From the NCBI GenBank assembly GCA_951406725.2, contig OX597814.1:216504001-216568000 (forward strand): DNA of 64,000 nt, written 5' to 3'. The translations under genes were made by a program, and so were the position numbers. Under the pieces are notes generated by a model. The model saw nothing but the letters and a program-made list of their open reading frames with translations. It had not been told where the DNA came from and did not search any database. Each line of letters begins with the position of its first letter. Positions within the stretch are counted from its first letter, which is position 1. The stretch is from Octopus vulgaris (lineage: Eukaryota). This document shows positions 1 to 49,389 of this stretch, in pieces.

Positions 1-715
1 ACGGTGTCCCAGCTGAGATCTACTAGGCCAAGCCTGATGTCTTTGCAGCCTGGCTCCATCGTGTCTTCTGTGCCGTGTGGGTGATGGAGGGTTTTCCTGA
101 TGACTGGAGTGAGGCAACTCCTTTACCTTTCTTCAAAAAAGGTGATAGAAAGCTGCCTCCAACTATAGAGGCATCAGCTTGATCGATGTGGCTGCCAACA
201 TGTTTGCAATTCTTCTTCTAAAGAGGATCCAGGCCATCCGTAATGTCTGTACTCGTCCTTCTCAGGGTGGCTTCCATCAGTTTCAGTCAAACCGTCCAAC
301 CCATGCCAGCATGGAAAGTGGATGTTAAATGACGATGATTATGATGATGATTTACATTTTCTACTAATCATTCTTTAAAGAGAAATTTCTTGAAATAAGT
401 GTTTTATTTTCTTACGTCCAATAATGTTGAACCAAGAGTTATAGCGTTGTCTGACTCTAAAGTATTTACGAGAGGCCATTTAGCTCTGGAAGCCTTCTTC
501 AACTGAATAACCAAGTTTCTTTCCTTGAACAGGTTACCCTGTTAGAAATTACTTCTCACATGACCATCAGCCTGAGTCATGTGATGTGGTAAGCAGGTAA
601 ATTGTGTGAAGCAGACAACACTGCCATATGATTAATATATACATGAAAGAAAAATTACAAGGAAAGTTTGAAAATGCACCATATATACATACATACATAC
701 ATATATATATATATG
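1..715 (+). repeat. Segmental-duplication copy of 45542-45815 joined to 48339-48775 (RTE RT fragment, LINE/SINE tail, unique flank)
   Basis: 1-274 matches 45542-45815 with ~4 mismatches, including the same TAC-TAG stop. 276-715 matches 48339-48775, including non-repetitive flank. Confidence 0.92.
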
Positions 716-723
716 TATATATA

Positions 724-754
<31 letters not shown>

Positions 755-875
755 GAAGATATATATGTGTATATATATATATATGTGTGTGTGTGTATAT
801 ATATATATATGTGTGTGTGTATATATATCTATATATGTGTGTGTGTATATATATCTATATATATATATATACACA
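680..875. repeat. (TA)n/(TG)n compound microsatellite
   Basis: Directly visible. The YI-repeat ORFs here are artefacts. Confidence 0.95.
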
Positions 876-1024
876 TATCCTTGACTAAAATTTTAAAGAC
901 TACATGTTTATTATGGACTTCTGGTCACACATGTGCAATGATATATAGTAACTAGCCTGAACATTACCTGCACCATGCCTATACATGTGTGTTGCAACGT
1001 ATTTCTTTCCTTAAAATTTAAACA

Positions 1025-3170
1025 AGACTCGAGGAACACACAATCTATTATATAGAAACAAAGCGTTTCCAAATGAAGTAAAAGCTAGAAAGGAAAATCT
1101 AAGAACAGCATGGATAGATTATAGGAAAGCCTATGACATGATCCCACACTCATGGCTAAGTGGATGTTTGAGTATATTCAGTAATTGCAGACAACAAAAG
1201 AGAATTAATTAGCTTTAGCGTGAAGGAATGGAAAGTAGATCTCTGCTCAAGTGACACACTCTTAGGAAAAGTTAATATCAAAAGAGGAATTTTCCAGAGG
1301 GAGTCGTTGTCCCCTTTAATATTTTGTCTTATGTTTGATCCCTCCCCAGTTTAGTATTAAAGAAGGCAGAGGCCAGGTATCAGTTCAGAAATAGTAAGGG
1401 AAAAATTAACCATTTGTTCTACATGGATGATGAGAAGCTTTTTAGTAAGAATGAAAAAGAGATAGATCCCTTAATACAGAATCTAAGATTCTTGAGCAAA
1501 GATACAGGCATGGAATTTGGCATAGATAAGGGTGCAATATTAGTCATGATGAAAAGGGACAGGTAGTCAACAGCGAAGGCATCCAATTGGCCAGACATTG
1601 AAATCATTGAAAGGAGGACAGAGTTATAAGTATCTAGGAGTATTAGAATCTGACAGGGAACTAACTATAGAAATGAAAAGGAAAATTGAAAAGGAGTACA
1701 TCAAAAGGGTGAGAGGAAGTTAATGAAGTCAAAGCTAACTGGTCTGAATCTAGTGAAGGCTGTAAATACTTGGGCAGTATCCTTATTTAGATACTCAGCA
1801 GCTTTTGTAGATTGGACAAAAACTGAATTAGTAAAGCTAAGCAGAAGAAGTAGGAAGGAATTCAATATGAATGGAGGACTCCATCCAAGGCAGGAGTAGC
1901 AAGATTATGCTTACCTAGAAAAGAAGGTGAGAAGTAGGTTAATATCAGTAGAAGACTTCTTGGAGATAGCTAGAGTAGATATAGACTCCTATGTAGATAA
2001 TGGTGAAGAAAGTTTATAAAGGGCTGCTAGAGTCACAGCAAGACATAGGAAAACCGAAAACCCAAACAAAGTTAAAAGCCAGAAAAAAAGAACAGAAATT
2101 ATTTGACCGGCAGGAGAAGATGTTGCATAGTAGATTCGCAAGAATAGTTGCAGCAAATAGTATTTGTGAGACTTGGTTATGGCTGCAGAAAGGAAAGCTG
2201 AAGAGGGAGACAGAAAGTTTGTTAGTAGCATCACAGGATCAAGCATTAAGGACTAATAGGATAAAAGCCAAGATAGAGAAAACCCAAGTAGATTCCCAAT
2301 GTAGGTTATGCAAATCAAAAGAAGAAAGTCTTACTCATATATAGTAAGTGAATGTAGCATGCGGGCACAGAAAGAATACAAGAAAAGGCAAGAAAATATA
2401 GGGAGAGGAATTCACTGGGAACCTTGTAGAAAGCTAGGATTTGCCCATACTAATAAATGATATGAAGACGAACCTAGTAAAGTACTGGAAAGTAAGAAAT
2501 ATAAGATGTGGGACATTCAGACTACAAGACTAATAGAAGCTAGAATGCCTGATTTGGCAGTAGTAGATAAAGAGACTAGAAAGTGCCAGATAATTGACTT
2601 TACAGTCCCAAATGATGAAAAAGTTAATATGAGAGGTATAGAAAAAATAGCAAAGTACCAGGACCTAGCCATTGAATTACAGGAACTATGGTTAACGTTT
2701 GTGATGGATCCGGCACCTTTCGTGGCACGTAAAAAGCACCCACTACACTCACGGAGTGGTTGGCGTTAGGAAGGGCATCAAGCCGTAGAAACATTACCAG
2801 ATAAGACTGGGTCTGGTGCAGCCTTCTGGCTTCCCAAACCCCAGTTGAACCGTCCAACCCATGCTAGCATGGAACGTGGACGCTAAACGGTGATGATGAT
2901 GGTAAGTGCAGATAAAATGTATCCCAGTAGTTATAGGTGCATTTGGAACTATCCCTAAAGATCTGAACAGATGGATAGAGGAAATAGGCATAAAACCCAG
3001 TTTAATATAGCTGCAGAAAACAGTGTTATTAGGGACAGCTAGGATACTTAGGAGGGTTCTTGGCATCTAAGGTTATTTGTTGTAACCCGATGTTAGGAAT
3101 TTTTCTTTTCCAGCTGTAATATATTGTGTGTATTTGAATAATTATAATATCAACAACAATAACAATTGCA
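1025..3170 (+). mobile_element. Decayed R4/Dong-like non-LTR retrotransposon (RT + CCHC + restriction-like endonuclease), 5'-truncated
   Basis: Motifs AWIDYRKAYDMIPHSW, GIFQRESLSPL, NHLFYMDD, LKRETESLLVASQDQALRTN, CRLC, MPDLAVVDK..CQIIDFTVP..EKIAKYQDL. Many stops/frameshifts and an AAT/AAC tail. Confidence 0.85.
2694..2900 (+). mobile_element. Short 3'-tail insertion (RTE-associated LINE/SINE 3' end with (GAT)n tail) inside the RLE element
   Basis: Same 3' end (GGTTGGCGTTAGGAAGGGCATC...CCATGCTAGCATGG...GATGATGAT) as 59000-59176, 39515-39660 (-) and 48260-48415. Interrupts the RLE ORF and is flanked by ATGGTTA/ATGGTAA. Confidence 0.75.
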
Positions 3171-3219
3171 ATAGACCACCTCATTTCGGGATGTCCTTAG
3201 TTAACACCAAACAAATACA

Positions 3220-3817
3220 AAAATTACCACGATAAGGGAGAACAGTATTTAAATTGGAAAGTATGTAAACACTACAAAATCAGCACTGCTGCTTACTGGT
3301 ATGAACATTATCCTGAGCCAGTCGTTGAAGGTAGAAATGTTACTATCCTCTACGATTGTCCAGTCAGCACAGATACTTGTAGACTAAATGATGTAAGTGA
3401 TAGAAATATATCAATAAAACAATTTGACAAATTAAGTAAATGCAAGGACCTGGAAATTGAAATACAAAAGACGTGGCATGTTACAGTAAGGAGAACTGTT
3501 CCTGTTATTGCGGGTGTCCTAGGTATAATAAAAAAAAAAGTAATGTCAGAAACATCTAGATAACATCCCAAGAGAACTTCAGGAAAACACAAAAGATTGT
3601 GCTGATAAATACTGCCCACATCCTTAGAAAAACCCTATCGATTTAAATGCTTGTGTTGTATTACATGAAGATACTTCACTCTTGCCCCTGCTACTCCCCG
3701 CTCCCCAAAATTTCAGTCATACTGTAACATCTCTTATCCATAATTTACCCCAGGATGCTGGGTGTGTCTTGGCAAGTGGTTGTAACACACATGCAGATTA
3801 AAAGCAAATATTGATCA

Positions 3818-3849
<32 letters not shown>

Positions 3850-3900
3850 ATAATAATAATAATAAATATAATAATAATAATAATAATAATAAATAATAAT
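3220..3900 (+). mobile_element. 3' fragment of a second R4/Dong-like RLE LINE with (TAC)n(AAT)n tail
   Basis: HDKGEQYLNWKVCKHY..WYEHYPEPVVEG..KCKDLEIEIQKTW..TAHILRKTLSI*. Confidence 0.75.
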
Positions 3901-3919
3901 AATAATGATATAAGAATAA

Positions 3920-4390
3920 GAATGGTAATGCAAAGACTCTGTGAGATTTTATGATTCAATGGGACCATGAGATAGAGATTAGGAAACCAGACATAGAAAG
4001 AATGCAAACGATACTGGATCATAGATATAACATGCCCAGCTGACAACAAAGTATGCGATAAGGAAGAAAGAAAAGTCGATAGATATGACAGGTTAGCTTG
4101 GGAGGTTAAGCAGCTGTGGTCAATAGAAAAGGTGGTAGTAGTACCAATAATCGTCGGAACCCTGGGAACAGTGAGTAAAAATTTTGAGAAGTACATGGAA
4201 CAATTTGTGGCTGCAAAAAGGGTGGAGTACTTGCAGAAAACAGCACTGCTTGGAATCGCTCAAATACTCCAGATGGTGCTCAAAAAATAAAGAGTGTTAC
4301 CTTAGTTCACTGGTAACCAACAGCTGGCACTGTAGTACATCTCCAGTGTTAGAAGCTGTGCAAAGACAATAAAATAATAATGATAATAAT
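3920..4390 (+). mobile_element. 3' fragment of a third RLE LINE
   Basis: RKPDI..WIIDITCPADNKVCDKEERKVDRYDRLAWEVKQLW..VVVVPIIVGTLGTV..LQKTALLG, followed by an AAT tail. Confidence 0.75.
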
Positions 4391-4602
4391 CCTTTCCACT
4401 GGAAGCACAAGGCCTCAAATTTGGAGGAATGGATGAAGTCGATTACATCACCTCCAGTACTCAACTGTTCTTAATTTATTGACTTTGAAATGATAAAAGG
4501 CAAAGTTAATCTGAGCAGACTTTGAACTTGGGATATAACAGCAGACGAAATACCATTTAAGCATTTCGCCTGGCATGCTAATGATTCTGCAAGCTCACTG
4601 CC
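4391..4602 (-). mobile_element. tRNA-derived SINE (family whose 3' half seeded the 115-bp satellite)
   Basis: Minus strand reads GGCAGTGAGCTTGCAGAATCATTAGC (A-box-like), AAGTTCAAAGTC (B-box-like), then GTCAATAAATTAAGAACAGTTGAGTACTGG...GGCCTTGTGC and an ATT tail. Confidence 0.75.
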
Positions 4603-4604
4603 TT

Positions 4605-4606
4605 AA

Positions 4607-4648
<42 letters not shown>

Positions 4649-4651
4649 GAA

Positions 4652-4682
<31 letters not shown>

Positions 4683-5300
4683 AAGAAGAAGAAGAATGAT
4701 ATCTTTTATTGGCCACAACACTAAAGGAATGGTTACAGCACACAAAAAGAACTAATAGATAAAAATAAAAACAGGTGGGGTTTACATTGATCAAAGAGAG
4801 ATATTATCACATTAAGGGATATGACAGAGGATATATAAAAGAAATTAGAGAAATAAATAATGAATAAATGTATAAATAAATAGAATCCCGAATAGGAGGG
4901 CAGTCCCACACAAAAATCCCAGATTACTCAGCCATCTCCAAGGCATGGGAAAGTGCCCTTCTTCCAGTTTCTTTCCTCCTGTTTAGAAAGGCATATTCAG
5001 AGTAGATGCATTCAGTCTCACCAGACTTGCTACTGTCGACTAGCTTTTGACAAACACACTAAAAGGCAGCACCTCCATCTCTACCCTCACTTTCCTTTTC
5101 AAATGATATTTGAAGAAATTGATGAGGGTTGGTTCAGATGTTGGCTCTTCCATGCCTGAAGAACTTGTCTCAAACAGCCATTGTCCCACTGTAGCACTGC
5201 CATGCCAAAGACTTTTGGAATTTGTCCATGATTTTGATGCAAAGGTCTTTTGGAAAAGACGACTCAGACTATTCTTGTTGATGCCTAGATTCAATCTTTG
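4605..5300 (-). mobile_element. Probable L1/Tx1-type LINE 3' fragment with AATAAA and (TTC)n(TTA)n tail
   Basis: C-terminal-like peptide LINFFKYHLKRKVRVE, minus-strand AATAAAAGAT just before the simple-repeat tail. Confidence 0.45.
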
Positions 5301-5889
5301 GCAATCATCACTTTATTATTATTAATATCATTATTGAGTGAGAGAGCAGTGCATGCCATCAAAGTGACACTGGGGTAAAATATATGAAGCCCAGTATAAC
5401 CATCATGACTACCCATCTGATAAAGGTACACCAGGCACATACATCACAACCATATGTGCACAACATGGTGATCTCAAATCAAGATAAACAGCACATGACC
5501 TTGCAGGTGGGGCTCAGTTAGGATTTTTTTCAGATTGAGTGGCCCATCCTATTCAAAAGGTCTCTGAATAAGGTTTGTCTAAGGATGGTGAATGAAACAG
5601 TCATGTTGCCAAAGGAGAATTATCCAAACCCCAAAGAATTCTTCTCAACGTATGGCTATGATGCTCCCACACTACTTCTGATCATGATCAGAAATGCACA
5701 TATCGTCAGTCACCAAGGGACATGCTCAACTGGTTAAGGTCAAACAACTGACAAGAAAATCTGTGGTATTGAGCAGAATGTTTGCTGTAGCCCATGTTTT
5801 ATACCAAAACGAAACAATGTACATGATAACACTTCTAATGATTAAGATCAGAAGCCATGATAGCTTATCGTTATTATTATTATTATTAT

Positions 5890-6850
5890 TTATAGTTTCT
5901 TTTCATGAATACTTTATTTCAGCTGCCTTGGTAACGGGCATCCTCCAGAGACCAAGAGTAGCAAGGGCAATTTTGTTTTGCTGTGCATGCAAAACTTATC
6001 CCCACATTTATTCCATTTTATATGGAGAGTGCTTTCCGTAGTGTATGGGCTGTACCCAATAAAGTCATCTTTTGTAGTTCACAGAGATTGGAGTTACAAA
6101 GGAGTTGCTTTATATAATTCTCAGCTCCCTTCTTTATCATTCCCAAGGCACCAAATACTACTGATATTATTGTAGAGCTAAGCTTCCACATTTTTGTGAT
6201 TTCAATTTGCAAATCTTTACAGTGAGAAAGCTTTCCGTATTCCTTTCTTGAGACATTTTGATCTTGTGGGACAGACATATCTATTAACAGACAAGTTCCT
6301 CTGTTGTTGTCCTTGATCACAGTGTCTGGTTGATTGGAGTCAATTTTTCTGTCTGTTTGTATTGGGAAGTTCTAGAGAATGGTGATGCTCTTGCCATTAA
6401 CTACATCCTCTGGATGGTGCTTGTACAACTTATCATGAGATTTAATTTTGTAGGTATTTCAGAAGCATTCTGGTGCATGTACCGACCTAGTTTGTCATGT
6501 CTTATCGGGTTCTCCTTTTCACCGAGGACTGAGCAGCCAGAAACAGCATGATCAATTGTCTCTGTGAATTTTCCCCCAAATTCTGCACGAGGGGTCAGAT
6601 CCATCTTTAAGGACATTTGTTTGGTAGGTAAGCTCTGATCTTGCTCTGCAATAGCAAAACCTTCTGTTTCCCCCTTTCAGACCTGTCTCTTGCAGCCATT
6701 GGCATGTGAGATTTTGATCAATATCTGGCTTGGACAGATGGTTAGGGTATTTTCCATGCAGGAGTTTACCCTTCCAGTTGTCTTCCATGTTATTCATGCA
6801 AGCCTTCTTTGCTTTTTGTTTGATGTCTTTTGCATCAGTGATAGGTTTGT
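5890..6850 (-). mobile_element. R4/Dong-like RLE LINE 3' fragment
   Basis: WKGKLLHGKYP, AEQDQSL, CRIWG..ETIDHAVSGC, RHDKLGRYMH, CLLIDMSVPQD..KDLQIEITKMW..LLGTAHTLRKALSI*. Confidence 0.8.
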
Positions 6851-6864
6851 CACTATTTGGGTCT

Positions 6865-7085
6865 CTTTGGTTTTTCTGACTACCTCTATGACCTTATCCA
6901 CCCATTTCTCTGCAAGGAGCGTCTCCACACTCCCTAGTCCATCACTATTAACATCCTCGAAGAGTTTATACCAATGTGCTTTGCCTGTGAGGACTCTGGC
7001 TGAAGCTCCTCTCCACCTTACCTCTTGTATGCAACATACATCAACATGTCTCCGTTGAAGCATCTCTACAATCTCACTAGACCTG
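6865..7085 (-). mobile_element. RTE-type LINE AP-endonuclease fragment
   Basis: MLQRRHVDVCCIQEVRWRGASAR, same family as 49390-50418. Confidence 0.8.
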
Positions 7086-8219
7086 CAAAAGAGATATGGG
7101 CAGTAACACAGGAAGGAGAGATGTTATTCAGCATCTGAAAAGAAAGTTACCGTGATCGTTTCGTAACAGATTTCATAACAGTTAATCTTTCTTTTAACCT
7201 TCCATCATTCAAACATGTTAGCATTGTTAAGGTTGTTGCCTCTACTAGGGGTTGGGAGTAAGGAAGCATTGTATATGTGTTTGGGGCATTGTAAATATAA
7301 GCATTATGAGCATTGTGGATGCAAGCATTACTAATGTTGCAGATATAAATGTTAAAACAAAAAAAGGAGAGAGAGAAACAGTAAGTGGAGTGCTATCTGG
7401 TTTAGTTAGTCCAGACATGGAGGGGGAGGGAAAGGAAAGGGCAACGAGATTACCAAGATAAGAAGAAAGAGGGAAGGGCAATTGGGTGTCTGGTAAGAGA
7501 AATGAGATTTCAGGTATTGGTGGTGGGGGTGGGAAGGGGTGGCTGCAGTCAGACAAACAAAAGAGAGTCATTTTGAGGAGCAGAGCAGATAAATAAGAAT
7601 TATTTTAGACAAAAATACAAAATATGTATATACGTGTAGCCAAGAAATAATGTTAGTGATTTTAGCGGCAGAACAAACAAGAAAGAATTATTTTAGAGAA
7701 CAGATGAATTTGAATGAATGAGGCGATTAAAAGAAGTGAAATTCTTAGCTTAGCTGTGCATATTTTTGAGGGTCAGCAAACGGCCAAACACATGGAATAA
7801 TCTATCGAAAATCTGAGAGGTGGGGGAACAGATGTGGAAGTGACAGCCGGAAATGGACAAAGATGGCAGACTTTGCTGCAAGGGAGTAAGAGAAATAGCA
7901 GTAAGTATCCATTGCAACTATGAACAAGAGAATTACTAGCAGGAAAGATACCAGGTTGCAGTCCGACATGCCCATTAAAATTTCCAGTCACAAAGATGAA
8001 ATCATTGCCACTCGTCTTTGATACATTCTCCTGCTACCCCCAATTTAACAATTCAAAATAATAACTTTTATACCTCTTAATTCTAACTTAGTTCATCTAA
8101 TTGTATATATTTATCGTTACTTTTCATAAAAAAGCATATATTTTTTCATATTCAATGTACATTTTCACATTTTTCCTTCTTACTTTCCCTATATATACAT
8201 ACATATATATATATATATA

Positions 8220-8682
8220 TAATAGTTATCGCCATACTAATATGGCAGTCTTATAAATATAAGACTAAAGCTGTCGCTGATTAGCTCCAAGAGGCCACAG
8301 CCTCAAGCTAGCTATTTGACACAAAACCTGCGTTCGTTATAAACCTTCGAACAAGGGAGGTCAGCCGCTCCATCCTGCCAGTCAGACAGCTGCAGACATG
8401 TTTTGGGGTTGTTGCCCCTTTTCAATGCAGCGTAGTCAGACCCGCAGGTGTCGCCACTGATCGTCCCAGTTCGAAGGCTTTATTTACCTAGTTACGGTGG
8501 AATACATCCACTTGTTTTCAATAATAGAAATATTAAAATTACTAAGTCTCTCTAAAGGAGATTACGGCAGCGTTACTGGAAATTAATAGTTATCGCCATA
8601 CTAATATGGCAGTCTTATAAATATAAGACTGAAGCTGCCGCTGATTAGCTCCAAGAGGCCACCGCCTCAAGCTAGCTATTTG
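8220..8682 (-). mobile_element. Small PLE-derived/retrozyme-like unit with ~97-bp terminal direct repeats and a degenerate hammerhead
   Basis: 8220-8318 is repeated at 8584-8682 (period 364), flanked by (TA)n. Hammerhead-like motif at 8389-8431. Confidence 0.6.
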
Positions 8683-8729
8683 TATATATGCATATGTATA
8701 CACATATATATATATATATACAAAATATA

Positions 8730-8775
<46 letters not shown>

Positions 8776-8819
8776 GCATATATACATATATATATGTATA
8801 TACATATGCATATGTGGGC

Positions 8820-9960
8820 ACAGGATATCACAAAACAGAAACAACAAAATACAAATACATGGAATATGAACAATTTTGCAAACAACGAAAGAAACAAATG
8901 GAAAACAAGGGGAAGGGGTATGTGGGAGTGAGATATTTAGGGATGGTGGGTTTGGGATGTGTAGGGTTTGGGAGTTGATGGACGGGTAAAGATGAAGGGA
9001 GAGGACAGATGGGAGAAGGTGGGTAGGAGTGAAGAGATTAAGTAGGTGTGAGAGGAAGGGAGGAGAGAGAGGAGAAGAGTTAGCTGAAGTGGAGAGGGGT
9101 AATTGAGCCCACGTGGTGCAAAGGAGTGAAGAGAGAAGATTAATTCCTGTTCATGCCAAAGACAGGAGTCCGGATGGCCCCTGTGCAAGTACAGTCTGAA
9201 CACAGACAGATGTTTTAAAGAATGACCAGTAGAGCAGAAATAGCGCAAGATCAGGGCGTTGTTGCTGAGTATGATATCTCAAAGGTGTTCTACGAACTGG
9301 TCAGCCAAGTGGCATCCCGTTTGACCAATGTACAGAGAAGGGCAGACATTGCAGGAGATACAGTAAATGACATTGCTACAAGTGCAGGTGAAGGAGTCAT
9401 TAATATGATAGGGGTGATGAAGGGTACCTGAGAAGATGGTGGAATTTGAGAGGTATGGGGCAAGTGTGGCAGTATAGGCAGGAGCAAGGTAATGAGCTGG
9501 GTTGGGAGGTAGGGTTAGGGAAGAAACTATGGATCAGGAAGTCACGTAGGTTGTAGGCTCGTTTCAAGAAGGGGAGGAGTGGGACGGGGTTGCCGAAAGG
9601 CTCAGAGAATAATGTGATGTAGAGGCAAGGTGGAGGTGTGGTTGCTGAGTTGAAACTGGAGACAGGTAAAGGGGGGTGGGTACAGGGAGAGAGAGTGGAT
9701 ACTGATGTGGGGATACCCATGAAGGATGAAGTGGCAAGCTATGAGTTGAGACTCAGTCTCAAAGTCATGGTTGTCACTGCAGAACCTATGTGTGTTTAGG
9801 GTGAGAGGAGGAGAAGTTGAGCTATGAGTGTGAGTTGGTGCATTTGTAGTGGATGGAAGTGGTGAGAGTGGAGTGATGAATGCTGACTGAAATGTCGAGA
9901 AAGGCGACAGAAATGTTGGAAATAGTGCAGGAGAATTCAAGGGCTTGACGGAAAGATTGG
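8820..9960 (-). mobile_element. Penelope-like element 3' fragment (RT C-terminus + GIY-YIG)
   Basis: Minus strand encodes FTCTCSNVIYCISCNVCPSLYIGQTG and EQELIFSLHSFAPRGLN. Confidence 0.75.
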
Positions 9961-9974
9961 ACAAAAGAGAGGAA

Positions 9975-12670: not shown

Positions 12671-12671
12671 G

Positions 12672-34235: not shown

Positions 34236-34268
<33 letters not shown>

Positions 34269-38419: not shown

Positions 38420-39483
38420 GTTTGTTTCATCACTACTCTCTGTCCATGCTGGAGCAGCACTGCCTTGAAAAATTTTTAGTCAAGGGAATCAATCTTAGTG
38501 TCCTTTGGCCTGCGCTAGGGAGTTTTAAGGGGAAGTGCAGTGGGTGCAAACTGGCCACACCCTTTAAGCACAAGGTTCATCTACCAAGGCCTAGCGAGCT
38601 GGGACAGTGACAGCGAGATCCTCAGGCCGTAGGTTTAAAGTCGGAGTTATCCTCTCCTAGTAGGGTTGCCAACCATGGCTGACGAGCCCCTCCTGCCAGT
38701 GCCATCCAAACCAAGGTGAAAGAGAGAAAAGGATCCATGGTTTTCAGTAGGCATACCTGGTTGCCTAGGCCGGAGTAGGGGCTTAACTAAGGAGACCCCC
38801 ACCTGGAGCCTTTGACTAAAAAGTCTATCTACAAGGCAGCAAAGCGAGACAGGGAGTCACACCCATTGATAGACAATGACAAGTAGACTAGTTCATACGC
38901 CTTTGCTTGGTCATTAACCAAACCGGGGTCCTAATGATCACGAAATTCCATTTGAGCCATTGACCAAATGGTTCTTCCGCCTCTTCTGGGATACAATGCC
39001 TCGGCTGAGACAAGGGACAGTGAGAATACAATATGTACATTTTATATACACACACAGAGTTTAAAATGCAATATATACACCATATACAGAGTTTAAAATG
39101 TTTTTTTAAAAAATGCAATATATACAATACACACACACACAGACACACATGCACAAAGCACTCCACACACACACGTTGTTGGATGGCCGTTGACTACGCT
39201 GTAGTTCTTCCGCCCTTTGATAAGTCTTATTTTTTGTGCTGCAGGGTGTCCAATAAACACCTGCCTCACTTAGCAAGCCTGGTGGGGTTGCCAGTTTAGT
39301 TGCCAAAGACCCGACCATGTAACAGGTTATACTGGACTACATGGTACCAGTAGCACTCAAGTGATCTTAGTACTTGTTTTAAAGTATGGTAATTATTCTA
39401 TCAGTCTCTCTTGCTGAACCACTAAGTTACATGGACATAAACACACCAACACCAGTTATCAAGTAGTAGTGGGAACAAACACA

Positions 39484-39490
<7 letters not shown>
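38420..39490. mobile_element. SINE-like repeat interrupted by an ~865-bp minus-strand non-coding RTE-5'UTR-like insertion (38500-39363)
   Basis: Target-site duplication ATCTTAGT at 38492-38499 and 39364-39371. Minus strand has GGCTCGTCAGCCATGGTTGGCAACC..GGAGAGGATAACTCCGACTTTAAACC. Confidence 0.5.
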
Positions 39491-39514
<24 letters not shown>

Positions 39515-41130
39515 TCATTTAATGTTTGTTGTCCATGCTAGCATGGGTTGGATGATTTGAGAGGAGGTGACATGCTGGAAGTTTGCACCAGGATCCAGTC
39601 TGATTTGGTATAGCTTGCTATGGTTGGATGCCCTTCCTAATGCCAACCACTCCAAGAGTGTAATGGGTATTTTTACGTGCTGCTGGCACAGTTGCCATTT
39701 ACGTGACACCAGTATCTGCCATGACTGCGATTGTTCTCTGCTTGATGGGTCTTCTTCTCAAGAATGACATAATGCCAAAGGTCTTGGTCATTGCCTCTGT
39801 GAAGCCCAAAACTCGAAAGTAACTCAGCCACTTTGTCGCCATGGGACCAATGCTCAAAAGGAACTCAGCCACCTTGATTCTGTGAGGCCCAACACTCGAA
39901 AGGAATTCAGCCACTTTGTCTCTGTGAGGCCCAATATTCAAGGTTGATTTTCTTTTGTGCCACCAGTATGGGTGTACTTGACTCTAGTCCTCTTAAGTAG
40001 TGCACATCGTCAAAGGTCTTTGTCTACAGTCATTGCTTCTGTGAGGTCCAAGTTTCGAAAATCATACTGGCTTCATTTCTCTCAAGCCTACACATGTCCT
40101 CGGCTGTTATAGCCCATGTTATGCTGCCATGCTGAATTGATATTCACACACAGGCAGCAAACAGCCTGCCTTTCACTCTGAGAGAGAAGCCCTTTGTTCC
40201 CAGCAGGGGTTGCAGCTCTCTGAACTTTGCCCAAACTAATCTTATTCTCACAGCAATGCTCTTGGAACAACCACCTCCACTACTGACCTGGTTGCCTAGA
40301 TACCAGAAGCTATCTACTACCTCTTTCTGTTGACTACCTGGCAGTCGACGAAGTCTATTTTCCACACACATTCAGCACTTATTACGCCTGTACAACTCCT
40401 ACATACAAAGGATAGTTTCTCTGTTAACATTCCTTTGATGTTGCTGCACCTTTTGTGTATCCAAAGCTTGCATTGGGTGCATCTTGTGAAGTTTCTACCT
40501 ACACCTTTTCTACAGACTGAGCAGGGCCATCTACCAGAAGGGATTTGTGATTTGTCTGCCTTCCTACTTACTATGACTTTGTTTTTGCTAGGTTAACTCT
40601 AAGGCTCTTTGATTCTAGACCTTGTTTCCATCACTTCCTCTCTAGTGCAAGTAGTGATTCATTTATAAGAGCAAGGTCATCAGCATAGAGGAGCTCCCAG
40701 GGGCAGCCTGTCTTGAATTCCTTTGTTATTGCCTGGAGAACTATGATGAACAAGAGAGGGGTGAGCACCGATCCTTGGTGAACCCCTACTTGCATCCTGA
40801 ATTTTTCGCTGTACTCGTTGCCAAACCTCAGCTTAGTGGTAGCATCCCTGTAGAAGGCTCGTACAGCTCTCACCAACCACTCGTCTATTCGTAGTGGCTA
40901 TGTTGACCACCAGATAAGGGATTGGGCACTCTGTCAAAGACTTTCTCCAAGTCAACAAATGCCATGTACAGGGGCTTATCTTTGATAGGAATTTCTCCTG
41001 CAGCTGTCTTACCAGAAATATAGCATCAGTGGTGCTTCTCCCTGGAACAAATCCAAACTGCATCTCATCTAGATTCTCTCCCAGATTAGTTGGGCTATGA
41101 CTCTCTCTGCAAATTTTGTCACCTGATCCA
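39515..41130 (-). mobile_element. RTE-type LINE 3' half with internal deletion (same family as 12672-15350)
   Basis: MQFGFVPGRSTTDAIFLVRQLQEK, GVHQGSVLTPLLF, LLYADDL, intact PHD-like motif, 3' UTR with ~45-bp repeats. Confidence 0.85.
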
Positions 41131-41219
41131 CGAGAGGTTTCAGTTTCTGTCTACCAAATCCACTCACAGGGCTTTGGTCAGACCAAGGTTATAGTGTCAT
41201 AATTACTATCAAATAGGAA

Positions 41220-42350
41220 TGAAATCCAAAAAAGTCCAATTTCAAATGAAAGCATACACTTGCTCCAATGTTCATTGATTCCATAGAAAATAATATGTAT
41301 GAGAGTGTCAATCTTGAGTATTCAAGTACTCCTGTTTGATTATTTCTGTCTAACCTTATTTTCTGGGGAAGTTAGTTTGGTGCAAAACCTGTATGAGTTA
41401 ATTATGTAAAGCAGTGGTCATAACTTGTTGAATTTCAAAGAGTGTTGCATGCATATTGTCTCTGCTTCTCTTTCAAGCATTTAGTTTTAGTGAGAATTTT
41501 TCGTAAACAACCATTGTACAGATATGTCATGCCAAACTGTATAGCAAGTTCCATTTGATGTGTGAAGGATGACAAAAGTAGAAGTTCAAGCATTAATGTG
41601 TGACTGATTCTTTTTCCGTAGTAAAATATATCTGTTGTGACTGTGGAGTTGCATATTTTTATGTGAATCACTGGGATTGGTAAGTCATTATAGTTGGTTT
41701 CTGTTTTGAATTTGATAGATGGCTGAAGAATGTTGAGGATGTTATTAAATATTCATAGATCGTTATTTGATCTATTCTAAAAACTGAAGCAGTCATCGAG
41801 GAAGGGGCTCCACGTTTCAATGGCATCTTTCTTGAAATTTTGGTCAAAAGCCTTTTCTACTTACTTGTATAGTTTTCCTTGTAAGAAATCCATAATGAGG
41901 TTAGCATATAAGGGTGCAAATTTCGTCCCCATTAAGAATATAAATGATGAGTCAGCATTTAGAAATAAATCTTACTTCACCCCTTACATGTAGGGGGTAT
42001 GACAAACATTTAGATACGTACATAGACACAAATTTCCAAATTCACTCTCAGAGCCTGTAAATGCAAACAGAACATTTGCTAAGAAGCAAAGGAAGCTTCA
42101 CTAACACTAACTGAAGAATGCCAATTGAATCATTCTCAAAGATGCCAATAAGGATGGGGTGATAGTGATTATAGAGAGGGACGATTACAAAGACAAAATA
42201 TTGGAATATCTAACCAACCAAAACTACTATAAGAAAGACAGAACATTAATTGACCAATACCCAGACTTCTTCACAGGTAAGGAAATTTACTTATGTAAAT
42301 CAGAAACTTAAGACTGTAATTTTTATAGATTACTCAAGATCCACAGAAAC
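41220..42350. mobile_element. Penelope-like RT fragments in inverted arrangement (minus 41220-41935, plus 41935-42350)
   Basis: Minus: MGTKFAPLYANLIM..WSPFLDDCF. Plus: ILKDANKDGVIVIIERDDY..FYRLLKIH. Confidence 0.7.
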
Positions 42351-43348
42351 TTTTGTTTGAAATCTCAATTTTCATAGAATTCCCATTTTTGTGAGGAGCT
42401 TCATTCTTGTTAGAAGACCCAATTTGGTATTATTCCGGGGGAAAGAAAATGATGTAAAACAATGTGATATTCTCAGCAGGGGAAAAAGAGGAACAAAACA
42501 CATTTTAACTGAATGTGAATACTGCGTATATGATGAAGGAAACACTGGCAAGTTACTTTTTCTTTTTTAAATCGTTAATAGGTTTAATGTGAAAGGTAAT
42601 TTAGAGAAAGAGAAGGAGGAGAAAGAAAGAAATTAGCAGAAAACTAAGAGAAATATAGTGTGATAGGTGAATGGGAATAAAACTTAAAGGCATGGAAATA
42701 GATATATGTAGTGGAAATGAAATGTAAGAAGACAGAGGTTGTATTTTATGGATTGGTAGTAATTACTTATAGGAACTAAAGGTATGTTTTTGCCAATGTT
42801 TGCAATGCTAAATACGTTCTGTAGACATATTTACAAGAGAATTCTCCAAGAACAGAATGAGATATAGTTCTTCGTTACAGAGCGGAAGACAAAATTAGAG
42901 ACAAATGACTGTGTGATAAACTTTCATAGATGAATGTATGAATATGTTGCAGTTAAGAAAATGTGTGAGCTAAGGTTATCTTAGGCAACAACATCATTCA
43001 ATTTCCATGATTATCATTATTATTATTATTATTATTTAACTGAACGAACAACAAAGAAAAGAAAATGTGTTCAACATGAGAGAGAGGGAGACAAACTTAT
43101 ATCTTATTAAATACCATTGTAAATTAATGGGGACTAAAGACCCTCCCCCTCGGTCATGAATGGCCATGGTATTGCACCTAGAAAGTTCCCCCCTGTCTAT
43201 TAAAGAATATTCTTCTAAATGATGGAATTGTATTGCTTCTTGGCATTGCAGCTGATAAATTACTGAAATTATATCACAGGTTAATTATATATATTTTGAG
43301 TAAGAACAATTGTTGGATTAAATATGTTGTATACTTTATTTATTACAG

Positions 43349-43528
43349 GTATTTATGGTATACCCATAGAAAAGGGAACCAAATGTACAGTAACAGCTAT
43401 AAAGGAATATCTTGATACTCACTCGAATTCTAAAATAAAACATATTTGTTTGATTGATATACGGAAGGAAGTAATCAGAGCTTTTAAGCTTCATCTAGAA
43501 ATGGTGTTTGGAATCAGTAAAAGCAGAG
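43349..43528 (+). CDS. Macrodomain C-terminal exon of the PARP14-like gene
   Basis: ttattacag|GT...AGAG|gtagga, 180 nt. Completes ISTG-IYGIP (loop 2) and encodes IKHICLIDIRKEVIRAF. Confidence 0.9.
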
Positions 43529-43699
43529 GTAGGACTTGTTATTTGCTTGATATTTTAGTGAAAATTTAAATGATTTATTTCAGTGGTTAATTAAGATTTT
43601 TCCTCCTTCAGTCAACTTTTATCTGATTCCTATTATGTATTATGGGCAGAGTCATGGATTTGTGGTTAAAAAGCTTCATTTCGAACCATGTTGAATCCC

Positions 43700-46600
43700 T
43701 AAAGGTTCAACCCCTCCTCAAAGCAGTAGGGTGGTGTAAAAGGGCAGTGTCAGAGCTATGCTGTCGGGAACTTTAGTTCCTGGTGGATTGGTTTGGCACC
43801 GAGCGGTATTAGGGCCGCAGACTGGCAAACGGGACTCTGGTGAAAATTCCAAGAGGCGTCTGATCGGCAACTGGTCGCTTTGAGGTCGTTCGGTCCCTGC
43901 ATCTGTGGAGACTCCACAGCAAACAACGCATCCCGTCTCTCAGGATATGCATGCAGGATATCGGGGACCACTTGTCAATTCAATATTCCCACAAAACTTC
44001 TATGAATCCTACTACTACCATGGCAATAAATACGAATACGAATTATCTACCTATGCAAACAATCAACAAACCTCAAACTGCTATGGCCATTCAAACTACT
44101 CCTGGAGTATTCCTGATCTTTAAATGTAGGACAGAACTGAAGGTACCATGCAGGAACATCAGAACCCTTCGCGACAACGGTGTCCAGTCGCTAACAATGA
44201 AGGCTTTGCACAAGTATTATGTGAATGTTGCTTGCCTTTCAGAGGTCCAACTCGCTGATGTTGCCCATCTTCCTATTAAGGTGCCGGGCGAGGATGTCAG
44301 TTATCACCTATATCATAGTGGCGTGACCGACAACAGTGGTCTTCATAGGGTTGCTGTGGCGCTCAGCCCTGACGTGCAAGCGGCTCTGCTGGCGTGGCAA
44401 CTGATCTCACACCGACTTGTGCTGGTTCGATTGAGGTGTAAAATCGCCAATGTCGTGAGATTGCTGTCTACATGCCCACTCTTCGTGCAGACGATGCGGA
44501 CGAGGTGCAGTTCTATACTGATCTCCAGGCTGCCGTGGATGGTGTTCCATCCAGTGATGTTCTCATTGTTGCTGGGGACTGGAATGCACGAACAGGGCCG
44601 GCTGATGATACAATGCGACATTTTCTGGGACGCCATGCCGCTGTGACAATGGTGAACAGCTCATATCCTTCGCAGATGCCAATTGTCTCATTGTTACTAA
44701 TACCCGGTTCCAACATCCTCTGCGCCATCTCGTCACTTGGCGGTCCAATGGTGGGAGAACAGCCAATTAGATCGATTACATACTGGTTTAGGTCCGGCTC
44801 GGCTAGCTCAGTGGTGGACGCTCGTGCATATTGCGGGACTGATACGAGCAGCGAGCATGGGTCTGACCATACTCTTGTTCGGGCAACCCTTCGTTTGCAG
44901 ATGCAGGAAAAATCTCCTCCTAACCATAAGAAGAGAATTGACATCTTGCAACTCAAACTCAATGCTGGCAATGGTTTCCAGTTGGAGTTGTGGAGCGAAT
45001 TCCAGTTGCTTGGTGACGTGGTGGAACAGCAGCTGGAGGAGGAGTGGCACGCGCTGAAGGAGGTGAGGTGACAGTTGAGGTGGCCTGAAAACACCTCTGG
45101 CCTACTCGCCGCCGTCATAGGGACTGTATCTCCGGCGACACTCTTGAACTCGTGGAGAGGGCTAGGGTGGCTCGGCGTGAGGGGGCGCCAAATCTGCGAG
45201 ATCTCCAACGTCAAGCCTCTCGGGCCATCTGGACCAATCGAAATGCAGACTAGCATGCATAACCGGGTTAGATGGAGAGAGCAGCCGCATGCGACCATGA
45301 AAGCTTTACAGACTAGTGAAGCAGGCCAGCTGTAGCAATCTGGGTGTCAGTGAGACGATCTGTGATCGGAACAGTGTGGTCATTACCAACCTCAATGAAT
45401 GGCTGCGCCACCTGCCTCCATCTACGACAACCGACGCGCAGCCGCCTGGAGAAGAGTACGGGTGCAACTCTGCCCCTTCAATCGCTGAGGAGATGCGCGG
45501 TATCCTGAAAAATCTCCGGAACAACAAGGCCCTTGGTGAGGACAGTGTCCCAGCTGAGATCTACTAGGCCAAGCCTGATGTCTTTGCAGCCTGGCTCCAT
45601 CGTGTCTTCTGTGCTGTGTGGGTGATGGAGCATTTTCCTGATGACTGGAGTGAGGCAACTCCTTTACCTTTCTTCAAAAAAGGTGATAGAAAGCTGCCTC
45701 CAACTATAGAGGCATCAGCTTGATCGATGTGGCTGCCAACATGTTTGCAATTCTTCTTCTAAAGAGGATCCAGGCCATCCGTAATGTCTGTACTCGTCCT
45801 TCTCAGGGTGGCTTCTTTCGCGGGAGAGGGTGTGTTGATCAAATCTTCAGTCTCCGGCGAGTCCTGGGACAGTGGTGGGTGCACCAACAACCTACCGTTC
45901 TCTGGTTCATCGATTCTGCGGCTGCCTTCGACTCGGTGGATCGAGAAGCCCTCTGGCGTATTATGCAGGCAGACGTTATCCCTGTGAAGCTGCTAAACCT
46001 CATACAGGGCTACTAACATTCAACGAGGGTTCATGTGAGGGTCTATGGTGGGATGACGGAGTCGTTTTATGTCACTACCGGTGTTCAACAGGATTGTGCG
46101 CTCTCGCCAACCCTATTCAATTACGCCATTGGTTACATTCTCAACACTGTGCTTCGTGACTACCCAGGCATAGAGGCTGGGAGAGGAGTCGTGGTAACGG
46201 ACATGGCCTATGCAGATGACATTGCACTCTGGGGCACTAACTGGGCAGATGTCCAAGTTGCTCTCGAAAGGGTGCATGCATCAGCTGTTGGTCTTCGGAT
46301 CAATACTGGCAAAACCAAAGTGATGAGGTCTCTGGTCACAGCAGATGAATGGCAGGCAATCGTTCTCAAGGGCATGGAGCTGGAGGATGTGGATTCCTTC
46401 ATCTACCTGGGTTCAACGGTGATTCCAACGGGCCAGGGCGCAGCCAAATTCGAGCATCACATAGGCGCTGCCAGATCCGCATTCATGCACCTCCAGCGGT
46501 GCCTGTGGGACAGAAGAGAGATCTCCTTGGTGACCAAAGGGCGAATCTACCAGGCTGTTGTTCATACTGTCCTCCATTATGGTTGTGAAACATGGCCTAT

Positions 46601-47080
46601 GAGGGCAGTCGATCAGCAAAGGCTGGAGGTGTTCGACAGTGATTGTCTCCGTTGCATTCTTCACTACCGACACATTGATCGAGTTCCTACAGCCGGTCTT
46701 CGTCATCGCCTGATTCTCCCACCCCTCCCTTCGGTGCATCTACAATGGCGATGAAGGTGATTCAGTCATGCGGCCCAGTCTCCAGAGAGTGAGCTGATTC
46801 GCGATGTCTGCCTCCCACCACCACTACTCAGCTGGCACAAATGCATGGGCGGGCACGTGAAGACCTGGGCAACCACGTTAAAGGAGGACCTCTCTGAACT
46901 GTCAGGTACGCAGGTCAGGTGATCGGTCTGTGCAGATGGAACCATGAATGGCTCGCTATTTCCAGTGACCTCGCACAGGACTGTCAAGTGTGGCCTGCCA
47001 TGGTTCGTGATGCCGTTAGGACCAGAGAAGAAGCCGGCTCAACCCGCCCTGGGTGAATGCCGTCACAAGTACAAGTAAGT
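43700..47080 (+). mobile_element. Apparently full-length, decayed GC-rich RTE-clade LINE inserted into a SINE (SINE halves at 43645-43699 and 47081-47470)
   Basis: 12-bp TSD ATGTTGAATCCC (43688-43699, 47081-47092). APE motifs VACLSEV, VAGDWNAR, GSDH. RT motifs GVQQDCALSPTLFN, MAYADDI. Tail ACAAGTACAAGTAAGT. Confidence 0.9.
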
Positions 47081-47649
47081 ATGTTGAATCCCAATGTAAG
47101 GCAACTCAAGCAAATATCTTCTAGTATGGCCCTGAGCCAACAAAAGCCGTGTAAACTGGTTTGGGAGATAGAAACTGATACAAGGGACCCTCATATATGT
47201 ACTGTGTGTGTGTGTGTGTGTTTGTACTCTTGTCTTGACATCATGTGATGGCTGTAAACGAGCATCCCCAGCATACAAGTGAGGTTGTTTGTTTCCTGTC
47301 TTCTGTGGAAACCACGTCTGGCCAGGGGGAATATTACCTTGCTTGGAAACAGATGAGGGTCAGCATCAGGAAGAGCATCAAGCTATAGAAAGTCTGCCTC
47401 AATAAACTAATCTCACCCATGCAAGCAGGGAACAATGAATGTGAAAACAAGGATGATGATGATGATGTTTAATTTATGGCTGTTGATAAAATATTCTTGT
47501 CTCACTCTGTGATTCCCTAACAAAGGATAATTATAATTATTTATCTGATACATTGTAAACATGACTATTGTTCATATTCTAATTAATATGAAGGTATAAA
47601 GTGTCCCCACACCCCACAAATAAACAGACATTGGAGAGTTATCAAATAG

Positions 47650-48415
47650 TTGGATCAGGTGATGAAAGTCATGGAGAGGGTCATAGCCCAAATAATTAGG
47701 GAGAGAGTTAGTTTAGACAAGATGCAGTTTGGGTTTGTGCCAGGGAGTAGCACCACTGACGTTATATTTCTGGTAAGACAGCTGCGGGAAATAAACCTCT
47801 GTACCTAGCCAAAGGTAGACCTCTTTACTTGGCCTTCATTGACATAAAGAAAGCTTTTGACAATCCCTTATCTGGAATGGTGCACAAGAGGCATCAGATG
47901 TGGTGTGCAAGAGAGAAGACTGCACTGTGGAGGGGACATGTGGAAGAGATAGACCCAAGATAGACAAGGGATGAGGTGGTGAAGCACGATCCTCAAACAT
48001 TGAGCTTCATGGAGGCTATGACTAGTGACTGAGACCTTTGGCAATATTCTGTGCTTAAGAAGACCCATCAAGCCAAGTGAAATTGTAGTTGTGGCTGATG
48101 CCAGTGTTGCACAAAAAGTACCTTACAAACTTTGGTCCACACAGAGATGATAAGTTGCTGAGACCTCTGGCAATTAACCATGCTTGAGAAGACTCATCAA
48201 ACCAAATGAAATCGCAGACGATGCTGGTGTCACCTAAAAAGCACCCATTTCACTCTTGAAGTGGTTGGCATATGGAAAGGCATCCAACTGTAGAAACTGT
48301 GTCAAATCTGACTGGAACCTGGTGCAGCTCTCCAGCCTATCAGTTTCAGTAAAGCCATCCAACCCATGCCAGCATGGAAAGTGGATGTTAAATGACGATG
48401 ATTATGATGATGATT
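47650..48415 (+). mobile_element. Internally deleted RTE-type LINE remnant with (GAT)n tail
   Basis: LDQVMKVMERVIAQIIRERVSLDKMQFGFVPG joined to 3' end sequence like 14700-14950. Confidence 0.75.
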
Positions 48416-49389
48416 TATATTTTCTACTAATCATTCTTTAAAGAGAAATTTCTTGAAATAAGTGTTTTATTTTCTTACGTCCAATAATGTCGAACCAAGA
48501 GTTATAGCGTTGGCTGGCTCTAAAGTATTTACGAGAGGTCATTTAGCTCTGGAAGCCTTCTTCAACTGAATAACCAAGTTTCTTTCCTTGAACAGGTTAC
48601 CCTGTTAGAAATTACTTCTCACATGACCATCAGCCTGAGTCATGTGATGTGGTAAGCAGGTAAATTGTGTGAAGCAGACAACATTGCCATATGAGTGATA
48701 TATACATGAAAGAAAAATTACAAGAAAGGTTTTAAAATGCACCATATATACATACATACATATTTATATATATATATATATATATATTGATTAACCCTGG
48801 CTGTAAACACGATTCTCAGAGGATGAAAAATTTCAGATAAAAGATTTTAAGCTTTCAACTTGCTCCTCGTTTCATTGTATTTTTGCGAGTATTATCATCA
48901 TAGACCCTTATTACTTTCTCGCTATTCTGTCTTTTCGTCTTACAGTCGATGTCTTTTCGTCTTAAACCCTAGGTCACGCACTTTCGTAATTTGCAACATA
49001 GTCTTTCACTCATGAAAATTTATCACACGATCACACAGTCTTTCGTCTCTAATTTTGTCGCTCATCTTGTCTTTCTCCCTCACTTATCGGCTATCATTCT
49101 GTCTATTTAATTCCTACCCTATTTGCCTATCTACCTGTCGGCCTTTTCTGTCTCTTAATTCCTAGCCCATGGTTGCCAGTTCGTGGAGGTACCTAAGCAC
49201 TCCCACCCTTTCCACCTGTACCGAAAGTCCCTATCTCGTCTTCCTTTGCTTGTCTCCCATGAACTCCTAAAGGCCTTACGCCAACACCACCCCTACTATA
49301 TAAGGTAGTGATAATACAGTGCAAAACATGATAGTTTAGTGTAAGCAGGTTGAACTTATTAAGATCATTGTTTGCTTATGAATTCTGCC

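What the first reader, a model, noticed from the sequence alone, without database searches (positions are those of the whole stretch)
1..48775. Recent ~45-48 kb segmental duplication that may repeat a phase-symmetric KH-macro module
Seen: 1-715 is a ~97-98% copy of intron sequence downstream of the last macro exon and shares the RTE's disabling TAG, so the locus was copied after that element decayed. The three exons are 1524, 249 and 180 nt, all multiples of 3 and all phase 1. I found no WWE/PARP-catalytic or first exon between 715 and 29682. Inference: another macro exon set probably lies just left of the window and could splice in frame to 29682, giving a tandem (KH-macro)n protein or an expanding macro-PARP cluster. 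In vertebrates this family acts in innate/antiviral immunity.
Basis: partly seen in the sequence, partly recalled or inferred. Interest (0 to 1): 0.72.

Follow-up and report, generated by a model that had tools for sequence, protein, structure and literature searches.

The report
Octopus PARP14-like gene repeats KH-macro block
The window holds the middle one of three tandem copies of a three-exon block (six RNA-binding-type KH folds plus an ADP-ribose macrodomain) inside an octopus PARP14-like gene, likely made by unequal crossing-over; this copy lacks the enzyme end and is likely decaying, while three sister genes carry the same repeated block and would encode longer proteins if the blocks are spliced together, which is not yet shown.

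Summary
The local facts hold: exons 29682-31205, 38096-38344 and 43349-43528 are phase 1, and a second set lies 2-12 kb left of the window. But the copied block is about 12 kb (97% identical); 42-48 kb is only the offset. The window is module 2 of 3 in one Octopus PARP14-like gene (B): RRM exons precede module 1 only. Its KH exon is a chimera of last-type and first-type modules, the mark of unequal crossing-over. Sister genes A (3 modules), C and E (2 each) share the layout and keep a PARP end, so the design is older than this copy. Gene B looks damaged: module 1 lost its acceptor and has a stop, module 2 has Gly>Asp at the macrodomain's ADP-ribose loop, module 3 is cut, and no PARP exon follows in 260 kb. 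Short indels occur in all five genes checked and may be assembly errors. The module-to-module splice was not seen. PARP14 clusters are known; no paper on this repeat was found. The scan earlier noted a different repeated module in another octopus PARP14-like gene.

The parts
1..274 (+). End of the decayed RTE piece in the intron after module B1; copy of 45542-45815; shared TAG at 24-26
   Evidence: 98.5%; the TAG is also in module A1, not in C1
276..724 (+). Intron sequence copied at 48339-48787 (after a 2.5 kb deletion in the left copy); right end of B1/B2 homology
   Evidence: 96.2% over 449 nt
875..1025 (+). Piece of intron found otherwise only after last modules (before the second macrodomain) of genes A, C, E
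   Evidence: 88-99%
15809..16570 (+). Piece shared with other module-to-module introns (B2>B3, A2>A3, C1>C2); may itself be a repeat
16573..29477 (+). 115-bp satellite, 112 copies, ending 205 nt before the KH-exon acceptor; a mark of this gene family
   Evidence: 236 bp to 16.8 kb before other modules; 150 of 426 matches listed, all on C1 in the family's clusters
29682..31205 (+). Large exon of module B2: six predicted type I KH folds, a disordered linker and the start of macrodomain 1; phase 1-1; chimeric (5' last-type, 3' first-type)
   Evidence: pLDDT 82; KH domains, Z 9.0, rmsd 1.7 over 64 residues
31178..31180 (+). Asp codon where the 20 other copies with an alignable loop and the two with a short deletion nearby have Gly; aligns with Af1521 Gly42
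   Evidence: PMC8319303 passage
38096..38344 (+). Macrodomain-1 middle exon (m1a), 249 nt, phase 1-1
   Evidence: Pfam Macro 2e-20
43349..43528 (+). Macrodomain-1 last exon (m1b), 180 nt, phase 1-1; identical to the copy at about -2194..-2015
43700..47080 (+). Decayed RTE-like insertion 171 nt after m1b, shared by modules A1, B1, B2, C1 and in part E1
30183..48787 (+). Span homologous to the upstream copy at -11703..724 (the true duplicated block)

Best explanation
The window holds module 2 of three tandem KH-macrodomain modules in one Octopus PARP14-like gene, likely made by unequal crossing-over inside the KH exon of an older two-module gene, and this gene copy is likely decaying while sister genes would splice the same modules into one longer protein. 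Shown: one set of RRM exons lies upstream of module 1; nothing of the family lies between modules; every exon of a module is phase 1-1; genes A, C and E have the same layout with further macrodomains and a PARP end after the last module. Shown: the window's KH exon has last-type letters at its 5' end and first-type letters at its 3' end. Inferred: misaligned pairing of first and last modules, helped by 92-95% identical exons and the 115-bp satellite before each, gave first-(last/first)-last. Inferred: the m1b donor joins the next KH acceptor in frame, giving RRM-(KH6-MD1)n-MD2/3-ART proteins with several RNA-binding arrays and several candidate ADP-ribose erasers per writer domain. Inferred for gene B: it yields at most a truncated product without a writer domain, because module 1 lost its acceptor and has a stop, module 2's macrodomain is predicted not to bind ADP-ribose, and module 3 stops after m1a.
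For: Gene maps. Phases and splice sites of 8 local modules. Chimera: of 96 diagnostic columns, 17 of the first 19 (29528-29847) are last-type, none first-type; 73 of 76 from 30934 on are first-type (many of these 76 lie in two indel or divergent patches and are not independent). Six module-to-module introns are homologous; one 1.35 kb block is found at full length only in five of them. 10 of 23 KH exons sit in such arrays. 3 in-frame stops among 23 exons against about 49-71 expected without selection, so the exon as a class codes. Two public models on this contig join m1b to a KH exon (P0001, P0002). Contigs of three runs stop at the exon's 5' edge where a fourth goes on into the intron; one bridges KH exon to an m1a-type exon, and one first-type piece is 5 letters from B2 against 7 for the closest assembled sister. 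Lesions in B.
Against: No contig listed shows an m1b-to-KH join (174 loose ends were not shown). None of the 12 O. sinensis and O. bimaculoides models among the 24 hits spans the junction. P0001 and P0002 are predictions with patched exons. Extra modules are often broken in this assembly (A1, A2, B1, E1), and C, the gene with two whole modules, has a 1-nt deletion in an RRM exon. Against decay of B: 1-2 nt indels occur in 5 of 5 genes checked, 5 of 6 in A-runs, as assembly errors would; B2's frame is open (chance 0.04-0.11 if neutral); a 100-N gap at +132,357 could hide the 3' half. Pairwise dN/dS near 1 (0.98 local, 0.86 overall) does not separate relaxed from mixed selection.
Confidence: 0.62

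Rival explanations
1. Gene B is a working multi-module gene: the RRM indel is an assembly error, the broken first KH exon is skipped in frame, and the 3' half is hidden in the gap or the protein acts without a PARP domain, as a PARP9-like partner.
For: Indels in A-runs in all five genes checked; all remaining B exons are phase 1-1 with intact splice sites; B2 and B3 KH exons are open; gap at +132,357; introns in B are very long (32 and 54 kb).
Against: Homology to gene A's intron ends at +105,870, 26 kb before the gap, with no m1b; no family exon to +364,000; all 18 matches to the last PARP exon lie elsewhere on C1; four separate defects fall in one gene; B2's loop Gly is replaced.
Confidence: 0.14
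2. Modules are alternative cassettes: each transcript uses one KH-macro module, so the array gives variants and not longer proteins.
For: Phase symmetry allows any module to be skipped; models from other Octopus species show one KH block; broken extra modules would be tolerated.
Against: All donors and acceptors are near-identical canonical sites, with nothing seen that would forbid joining; no transcript evidence for skipping.
Confidence: 0.12
3. The repeat is an assembly artefact: two haplotypes joined in tandem.
For: High identity (97%, m1b 100%); a gap and indels in the cluster; read depth not tested.
Against: The copies have different 5' flanks and large indels; B2 is a chimera of two module types that differ by about 10% in m1a and m1b; the same junction intron stands in four genes, one 211 Mb away; an O. 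sinensis protein groups with module E1 apart from E2 (bootstrap 100).
Confidence: 0.06
4. Each module belongs to its own gene in a tandem cluster.
For: The family is a large cluster with many single-module genes; a new promoter or non-coding first exon would not be seen by my searches.
Against: No RRM or PARP exon between modules in A, B, C or E; 23 KH loci against 15 loci for the RRM exon searched.
Confidence: 0.06

Closest known systems
Human PARP14 (RRM1-3, KH1-8, MD1-3, WWE, ART; PMC13224862, passages and section 9 seen)
   Same: RRM exons, a KH array running into a macrodomain closest to PARP14 MD1 (3q6z, E 2.5e-25, against 4.5e-10 for 3q71 and 1.1e-7 for 4abk, query P0017 = module C1), then further macrodomains and a PARP domain in sister genes.
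   Different: The KH-MD1 block is repeated two or three times at DNA level; gene B has no later macrodomain or ART exon; WWE was not detected by Pfam in the Octopus models.
PARP9 and PARP15, partial duplicates of PARP14 (PMC10221186, passages and section 3.1 seen)
   Same: Partial duplication as the source of new macro-PARP layouts; loss of MD1 activity recurs.
   Different: Those are separate genes; here the partial copy stays inside the gene. Gene B has no ART domain at all.
PARP14-like clusters of lancelet and sponge (PMC4245714, passages seen)
   Same: Local duplication into clusters, variable macrodomain number.
   Different: At least 4 and 6 genes there; here 23 KH-exon loci and 17 last-PARP-exon loci on one chromosome, with repeats of the KH block.
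Public Octopus models P0001 and P0002 ('PARP14-like')
   Same: They map to gene A and already join m1b to a following KH exon.
   Different: They split gene A in two at frameshifts and are named as ordinary PARP14-like proteins; no model for gene B was returned.

Membership tests
PARP14-like macro-PARP | N-terminal RRM domains | tested here: met
   Three exons at -30133..-23410 match RRM regions of P0007 and P0002, which carry Pfam RRM_PARP14_3; the third has a 2-nt deletion in an A-run.
PARP14-like macro-PARP | Array of type I KH domains before the macrodomains | tested here: met
   Six repeats of the fold in the model; best solved matches are KH domains, Z 9.0. Pfam gives no KH hit on the exon itself, but 23 of 41 aligned relatives match KH_PARP14_1.
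PARP14-like macro-PARP | Macrodomain 1 directly after the KH array | tested here: met
   Pfam Macro 2e-20; best PDB matches are PARP14 and PARP9 first macrodomains.
PARP14-like macro-PARP | Macrodomains 2/3 and a C-terminal ART domain in the same gene (gene B) | tested here: not met
   None from +104,200 to +364,000 and none downstream in genome-wide searches; one 100-N gap remains. Gene B is therefore filed as a truncated derivative, not a full member.
PARP14-like macro-PARP | Macrodomains 2/3 and ART domain (sister genes A and C) | tested here: met
   Exons present after the last module, with LWHGT and YFA motifs; Pfam PARP on P0003 1.8e-17.
PARP14-like macro-PARP | WWE domain | tested here: inconclusive
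   No Pfam WWE hit on 10 Octopus models or the limpet protein at E 0.001; no dedicated search.
PARP14-like macro-PARP | Immune induction and antiviral action | not testable with these tools
   Known from vertebrates (PMC13224862). In octopus only a proteomics mention of a PARP14-like protein in skin mucus was found (PMC11431876, one passage).
Hydrolase-active macrodomain 1 | Asn and Gly flanking loop 1 (window module B2) | tested here: not met
   Asn kept; Asp at the Af1521 Gly42 column. G42E abolishes binding in wild-type Af1521, though it is tolerated with other changes (PMC8319303 passage). That PARP14 G832 is the same column is recalled, not checked.
Hydrolase-active macrodomain 1 | Hydrophobic plus aromatic residue in loop 2 | tested here: met
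   IY in B1, B2, C1; TF in A2, A3, C2; IF in E2; IC in A1 (not met there). Criteria from PMC10221186 section 3.1.
Hydrolase-active macrodomain 1 | ADP-ribosyl hydrolase activity | not testable with these tools
   Needs an assay.
Intragenic tandem module duplication | Phase-symmetric unit between shared 5' and 3' exons | tested here: met
   (5' and 3' ends in A, C, E; 5' end only in B).
Intragenic tandem module duplication | Transcript joining one module to the next | tested here: inconclusive
   Not among the loose ends listed; only predicted models show it.

The most novel reading that the evidence does not exclude
Octopus runs a PARP14 'accordion': unequal crossing-over between satellite-flanked, phase-symmetric KH6-macrodomain-1 modules changes how many RNA-binding arrays and ADP-ribose erasers sit in front of one writer domain, copy number varies between animals, and truncated copies such as gene B act as writer-less, binding-dead decoys or partners.
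Probability: 0.22. Interest if true: 0.66.

Novelty: new variant of a known kind. Interest (0 to 1): 0.42.

Why it matters
PARP14 carries both a writer (ART) and its own eraser (macrodomain 1), and vertebrates diversified it by making separate partial genes. If the octopus modules are spliced in series, this lineage multiplied the eraser and KH block inside the gene, with loop variants from module to module, which gives a natural series to test what KH arrays and extra erasers do. It also means public models split and mislabel these genes. If the junction is not spliced, it is an ordinary birth-and-death cluster with one decaying copy.

Tried and rejected
Sequencing runs: no RNA holder listed on record; kinds are guesses. 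At 12 of B2's 19 private sites that one search lists, the laid contigs mostly carry the sister letter; contigs drop rare variants and come from other animals, so this is not taken as evidence that B2 is silent. No read set was laid on a stretch holding both the 43528 donor and the 29682 acceptor, so the join was tested only through loose ends at the acceptor. Positive selection on the 5' half of the KH exon was considered because it differs by 10% against 3-4% in introns; rejected, since pN and pS are equal (0.10) and chimerism explains it. A 56-nt candidate exon at 533-588 (and 48596-48651), used by model P0001, was set aside: it has stops in the read-through, is absent from the other four models printed and would shift the frame. 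Pfam PARP search of the genome missed the C1 genes; own-exon queries found them. Foldseek on the whole model gave only weak matches. The codon-model run printed no omega. P0047 (unnamed) repeats a KH stretch three times without a macrodomain, and P0063's second match is partial: not the same design. Literature searches found no paper on repeated KH-macro modules or on this octopus cluster; subscription papers and supplements were not seen. Look-ups by place and sequence in earlier findings were empty.

Full report
Coordinates are window coordinates; negative or above 64,000 means beside the window. The window is G000:C1:216,504,001-216,568,000. Proteins named Octopus vulgaris lie on a contig of the same length as C1 and match neighbouring exons at 100%, so the animal is taken to be that species. 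Gene letters A-E and module numbers are mine.

1. Observation. Bases 1-274 match 45542-45815 at 98.5% and 276-724 match 48339-48787 at 96.2%. The three exons are 29682-31205, 38096-38344 and 43349-43528; all are multiples of three, phase 1, and join to 650 codons without a stop. The predicted upstream set exists: a KH-exon remnant at -11703..-10681, m1a near -7440 and m1b near -2194. The duplicated block is -11703..724 against 30183..48787, 12,060 aligned bases at 97.0%. The offset grows from 41.9 to 48.1 kb through indels. The DNA between the copies is not duplicated: 2,760 of 15,846 bases of 724-16570 align to the next spacer, and 16573-29477 is a 115-bp satellite. So the title's 45-48 kb duplication is an offset, not a length.

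2. What the exons encode. The large exon folds into six repeats of the type I KH pattern, a low-confidence linker (418-460) and the start of a macrodomain (mean pLDDT 82). The best solved matches are KH domains (PCBP1 Z 9.0; PCBP2 Z 9.0, rmsd 1.7 over 64 residues); matches concentrate on residues 99-221 and 353-414. The macrodomain of the sister module C1 is closest to human PARP14 and PARP9 first macrodomains.

3. The family. The exon has 27 matches in the genome, 23 loci once four split pairs are merged, all on C1 in clusters near 5.3-5.8, 7.5-9.5, 206-207 and 215.8-216.6 Mb. The last PARP exon has 18 matches (17 loci) and one RRM exon 16 (15 loci); these are lower bounds. I fetched 664 kb around the window (one region of 654 kb was searched), 170 kb over gene C, 80 kb over the 5' part of gene E and parts of gene D; other clusters are judged from coordinates only.

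4. Gene layout. Gene A (216.24-216.38 Mb): RRM exons, three KH-m1a-m1b modules, two further macrodomains, PARP end. Gene C (215.82-215.96 Mb, minus): RRM, two modules, two macrodomains, PARP end. Gene E (5.36-5.52 Mb): RRM, two modules, macrodomains, PARP end (3' part from search coordinates). Gene D has one module. Gene B, the window's gene: RRM exons at -30133..-23410, module B1, module B2 (window), module B3 (KH at 97,330, m1a at 103,900), then no family exon to +364,000. Ten of the 23 KH exons are in such arrays. No RRM or PARP exon lies between modules.

5. How it arose. Modules fall in two types, first (A1, B1, C1) and last (A3, B3, C2), which differ by about 10% in m1a and m1b and have unrelated intron 1 interiors. 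B2 carries last-type letters at 17 of the first 19 diagnostic columns (29528-29847) and first-type letters at 73 of 76 from 30934. That is what a crossover between the last module of one chromatid and the first of another gives: first-(last/first)-last. The six junction introns are homologous, and a 1.35 kb block occurs at full length only in five of them, in part also upstream of one other KH exon. E's junction is about 90% identical to the others, so the two-module design is older than the 3% split of B1 and B2. An O. sinensis protein groups with E1 apart from E2. The satellite precedes each KH exon examined, from 236 bp to 16.8 kb, and B1's deletion begins in it; that it promotes mispairing is inference. 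The B1-B2 junction is more complex than one crossover, since 875-1025 resembles introns after last modules.

6. State of gene B. The third RRM exon has a 2-nt deletion in an A-run. B1's KH exon lacks its acceptor and first 501 nt and has AAG>TAG at -11308; its m1a and m1b are whole, so they could be spliced in frame but would lack the macrodomain's N-terminal loop. B2 has Asp at the column of Af1521 Gly42, alone among 23 copies; G42E abolishes ADP-ribose binding in wild-type Af1521 (PMC8319303, passage), and a Gly-to-Glu change blocks PARP14 MD1 (PMC10499325, passage). B3 has no m1b; homology to gene A ends at 105,870, and a 100-N gap lies at 132,357. Against reading all this as decay: 1-2 nt indels also occur in A1, A2, C, D and E1, five of the six in A-runs, so short indels here may be assembly errors. 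The deletion, the stop and the missing 3' half are harder to explain that way.

7. Selection. Three in-frame stops occur among 23 exons, against about 49-71 expected from tree length without selection (rough, since recombination inflates the tree). Mean dN/dS is 0.98 for the 8 local copies (28 pairs, 0.70-1.56), 0.86 for all 23, and 0.35 in the macrodomain start. B2 has 16 private amino-acid changes and 3 silent ones, close to the ratio of sites. The exon codes as a class and evolves fast; positive selection is not shown.

8. Transcripts. Four runs were laid on 29500-31400. Three (X1, X5, X7) have no cover of 29500-29627, where X18 has. One X5 contig leaves the exon at its donor and continues into an m1a-type exon; its start matches E1's m1a among 110 loci, while its KH end is one letter from B2, so it is a form not in this assembly. 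Another X5 piece (30836-31103) is first-type and closer to B2 (5 letters) than any assembled sister (7). In this assembly first-type modules of A, B and C are always followed by another module, so this hints that multi-module genes are transcribed. No m1b-to-KH join is among the listed loose ends; 174 were not shown. Among 24 proteins found with the junction region only P0001 and P0002, predictions on this contig, span it. Of 109 fetched proteins with a KH-profile hit, four show a repeated match: those two, P0047 and, weakly, P0063.

9. Comparison and novelty. PARP14 with RRM, KH, three macrodomains, WWE and ART is ancient and present in molluscs; only macrodomain 1 erases ADP-ribose; partial and clustered duplications are common (PMC13224862 passages and section 9; PMC10221186 passages and section 3.1; PMC4245714 passages; PMC4038475 seen as a listing only). 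The searches found nothing on repeated KH-macro modules or on this cluster. The finding works like an intragenic module expansion of PARP14; gene B itself fails the ART test and is a truncated derivative.

10. Verdict. A real, partly mis-sized feature. New variant of a known kind. The DNA layout and crossover origin are well supported (about 0.85), splicing of modules in series in at least one sister gene is likely (about 0.65), and a working protein from the window's own gene is unlikely (about 0.2). Interest 0.42.

Noticed in passing
window 16573-29477; G000:C1 near KH exons: A 115-bp satellite at 97-99% unit identity sits about 200 nt before family KH exons across clusters 200 Mb apart, although the exons differ by 10-13%; this suggests ongoing homogenisation. 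One 9 kb array at 206.48-206.49 Mb has no KH exon listed next to it.
   Followed up: partly
G000:C1:216,473,866-216,480,590 against 216,099,000-216,106,300: Gene B's RRM exons are 97.5-99.6% identical to those of single-module gene D, while A and C share a shorter-matching second RRM exon: gene B looks like a D-type head on A/C-type modules.
   Followed up: partly
G000:C1:8.58-8.96 Mb, minus strand: Order by coordinates: RRM, KH (8,923,098), second-type macro, KH (8,755,326), m1a, m1b, macros, PARP, with no RRM match between the two KH exons; a further tandem layout is possible.
   Followed up: no
G000:C1:206.61-206.77 Mb; P0007, P0031: The second-type macrodomain unit is also expanded: seven such exons follow one KH module here, and O. 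sinensis P0007 has five macrodomains.
   Followed up: no
G000:C1:8,382,234 and 8,755,326: Two KH exons 373 kb apart are identical in the alignment: very recent copy or redundant assembly.
   Followed up: no
modules A2, A3, B3: Loop 1 reads NATNGRLNLMEGV in place of NAANGRLEHMGGV: a distinct macrodomain variant in last-type modules.
   Followed up: partly
module A2, columns 29657-29721 of the window exon: A last-type module with a short first-type tract over its acceptor, a likely gene-conversion patch.
   Followed up: partly
window 30755-31062: Contigs of X5 and X7 skip 306 nt inside the KH exon (ends TG..AG), perhaps a deletion form of a sister gene.
   Followed up: no
window 41700-43600 and about 45400: B1 and B2 reach 98-99% here (m1b 100%) against 95-97% elsewhere: possible conversion tract.
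   Followed up: partly
+123,191..125,229 and +126,384..128,420 (right of window): A 2 kb inverted repeat at 99.7% close to the assembly gap.
   Followed up: no
window 59529-61014, 61408-63929, 13526-14740, 49363-50181: Fragments of reverse-transcriptase and endonuclease frames of retrotransposons, one with a CCCH-like stretch, fill the introns (labels by eye).
   Followed up: no
window 53357-53746 / 54258-54646 and 56086-56557 / 58145-58629: Small local direct (97.7%) and inverted (95.7%) repeats beside long TA arrays.
   Followed up: no
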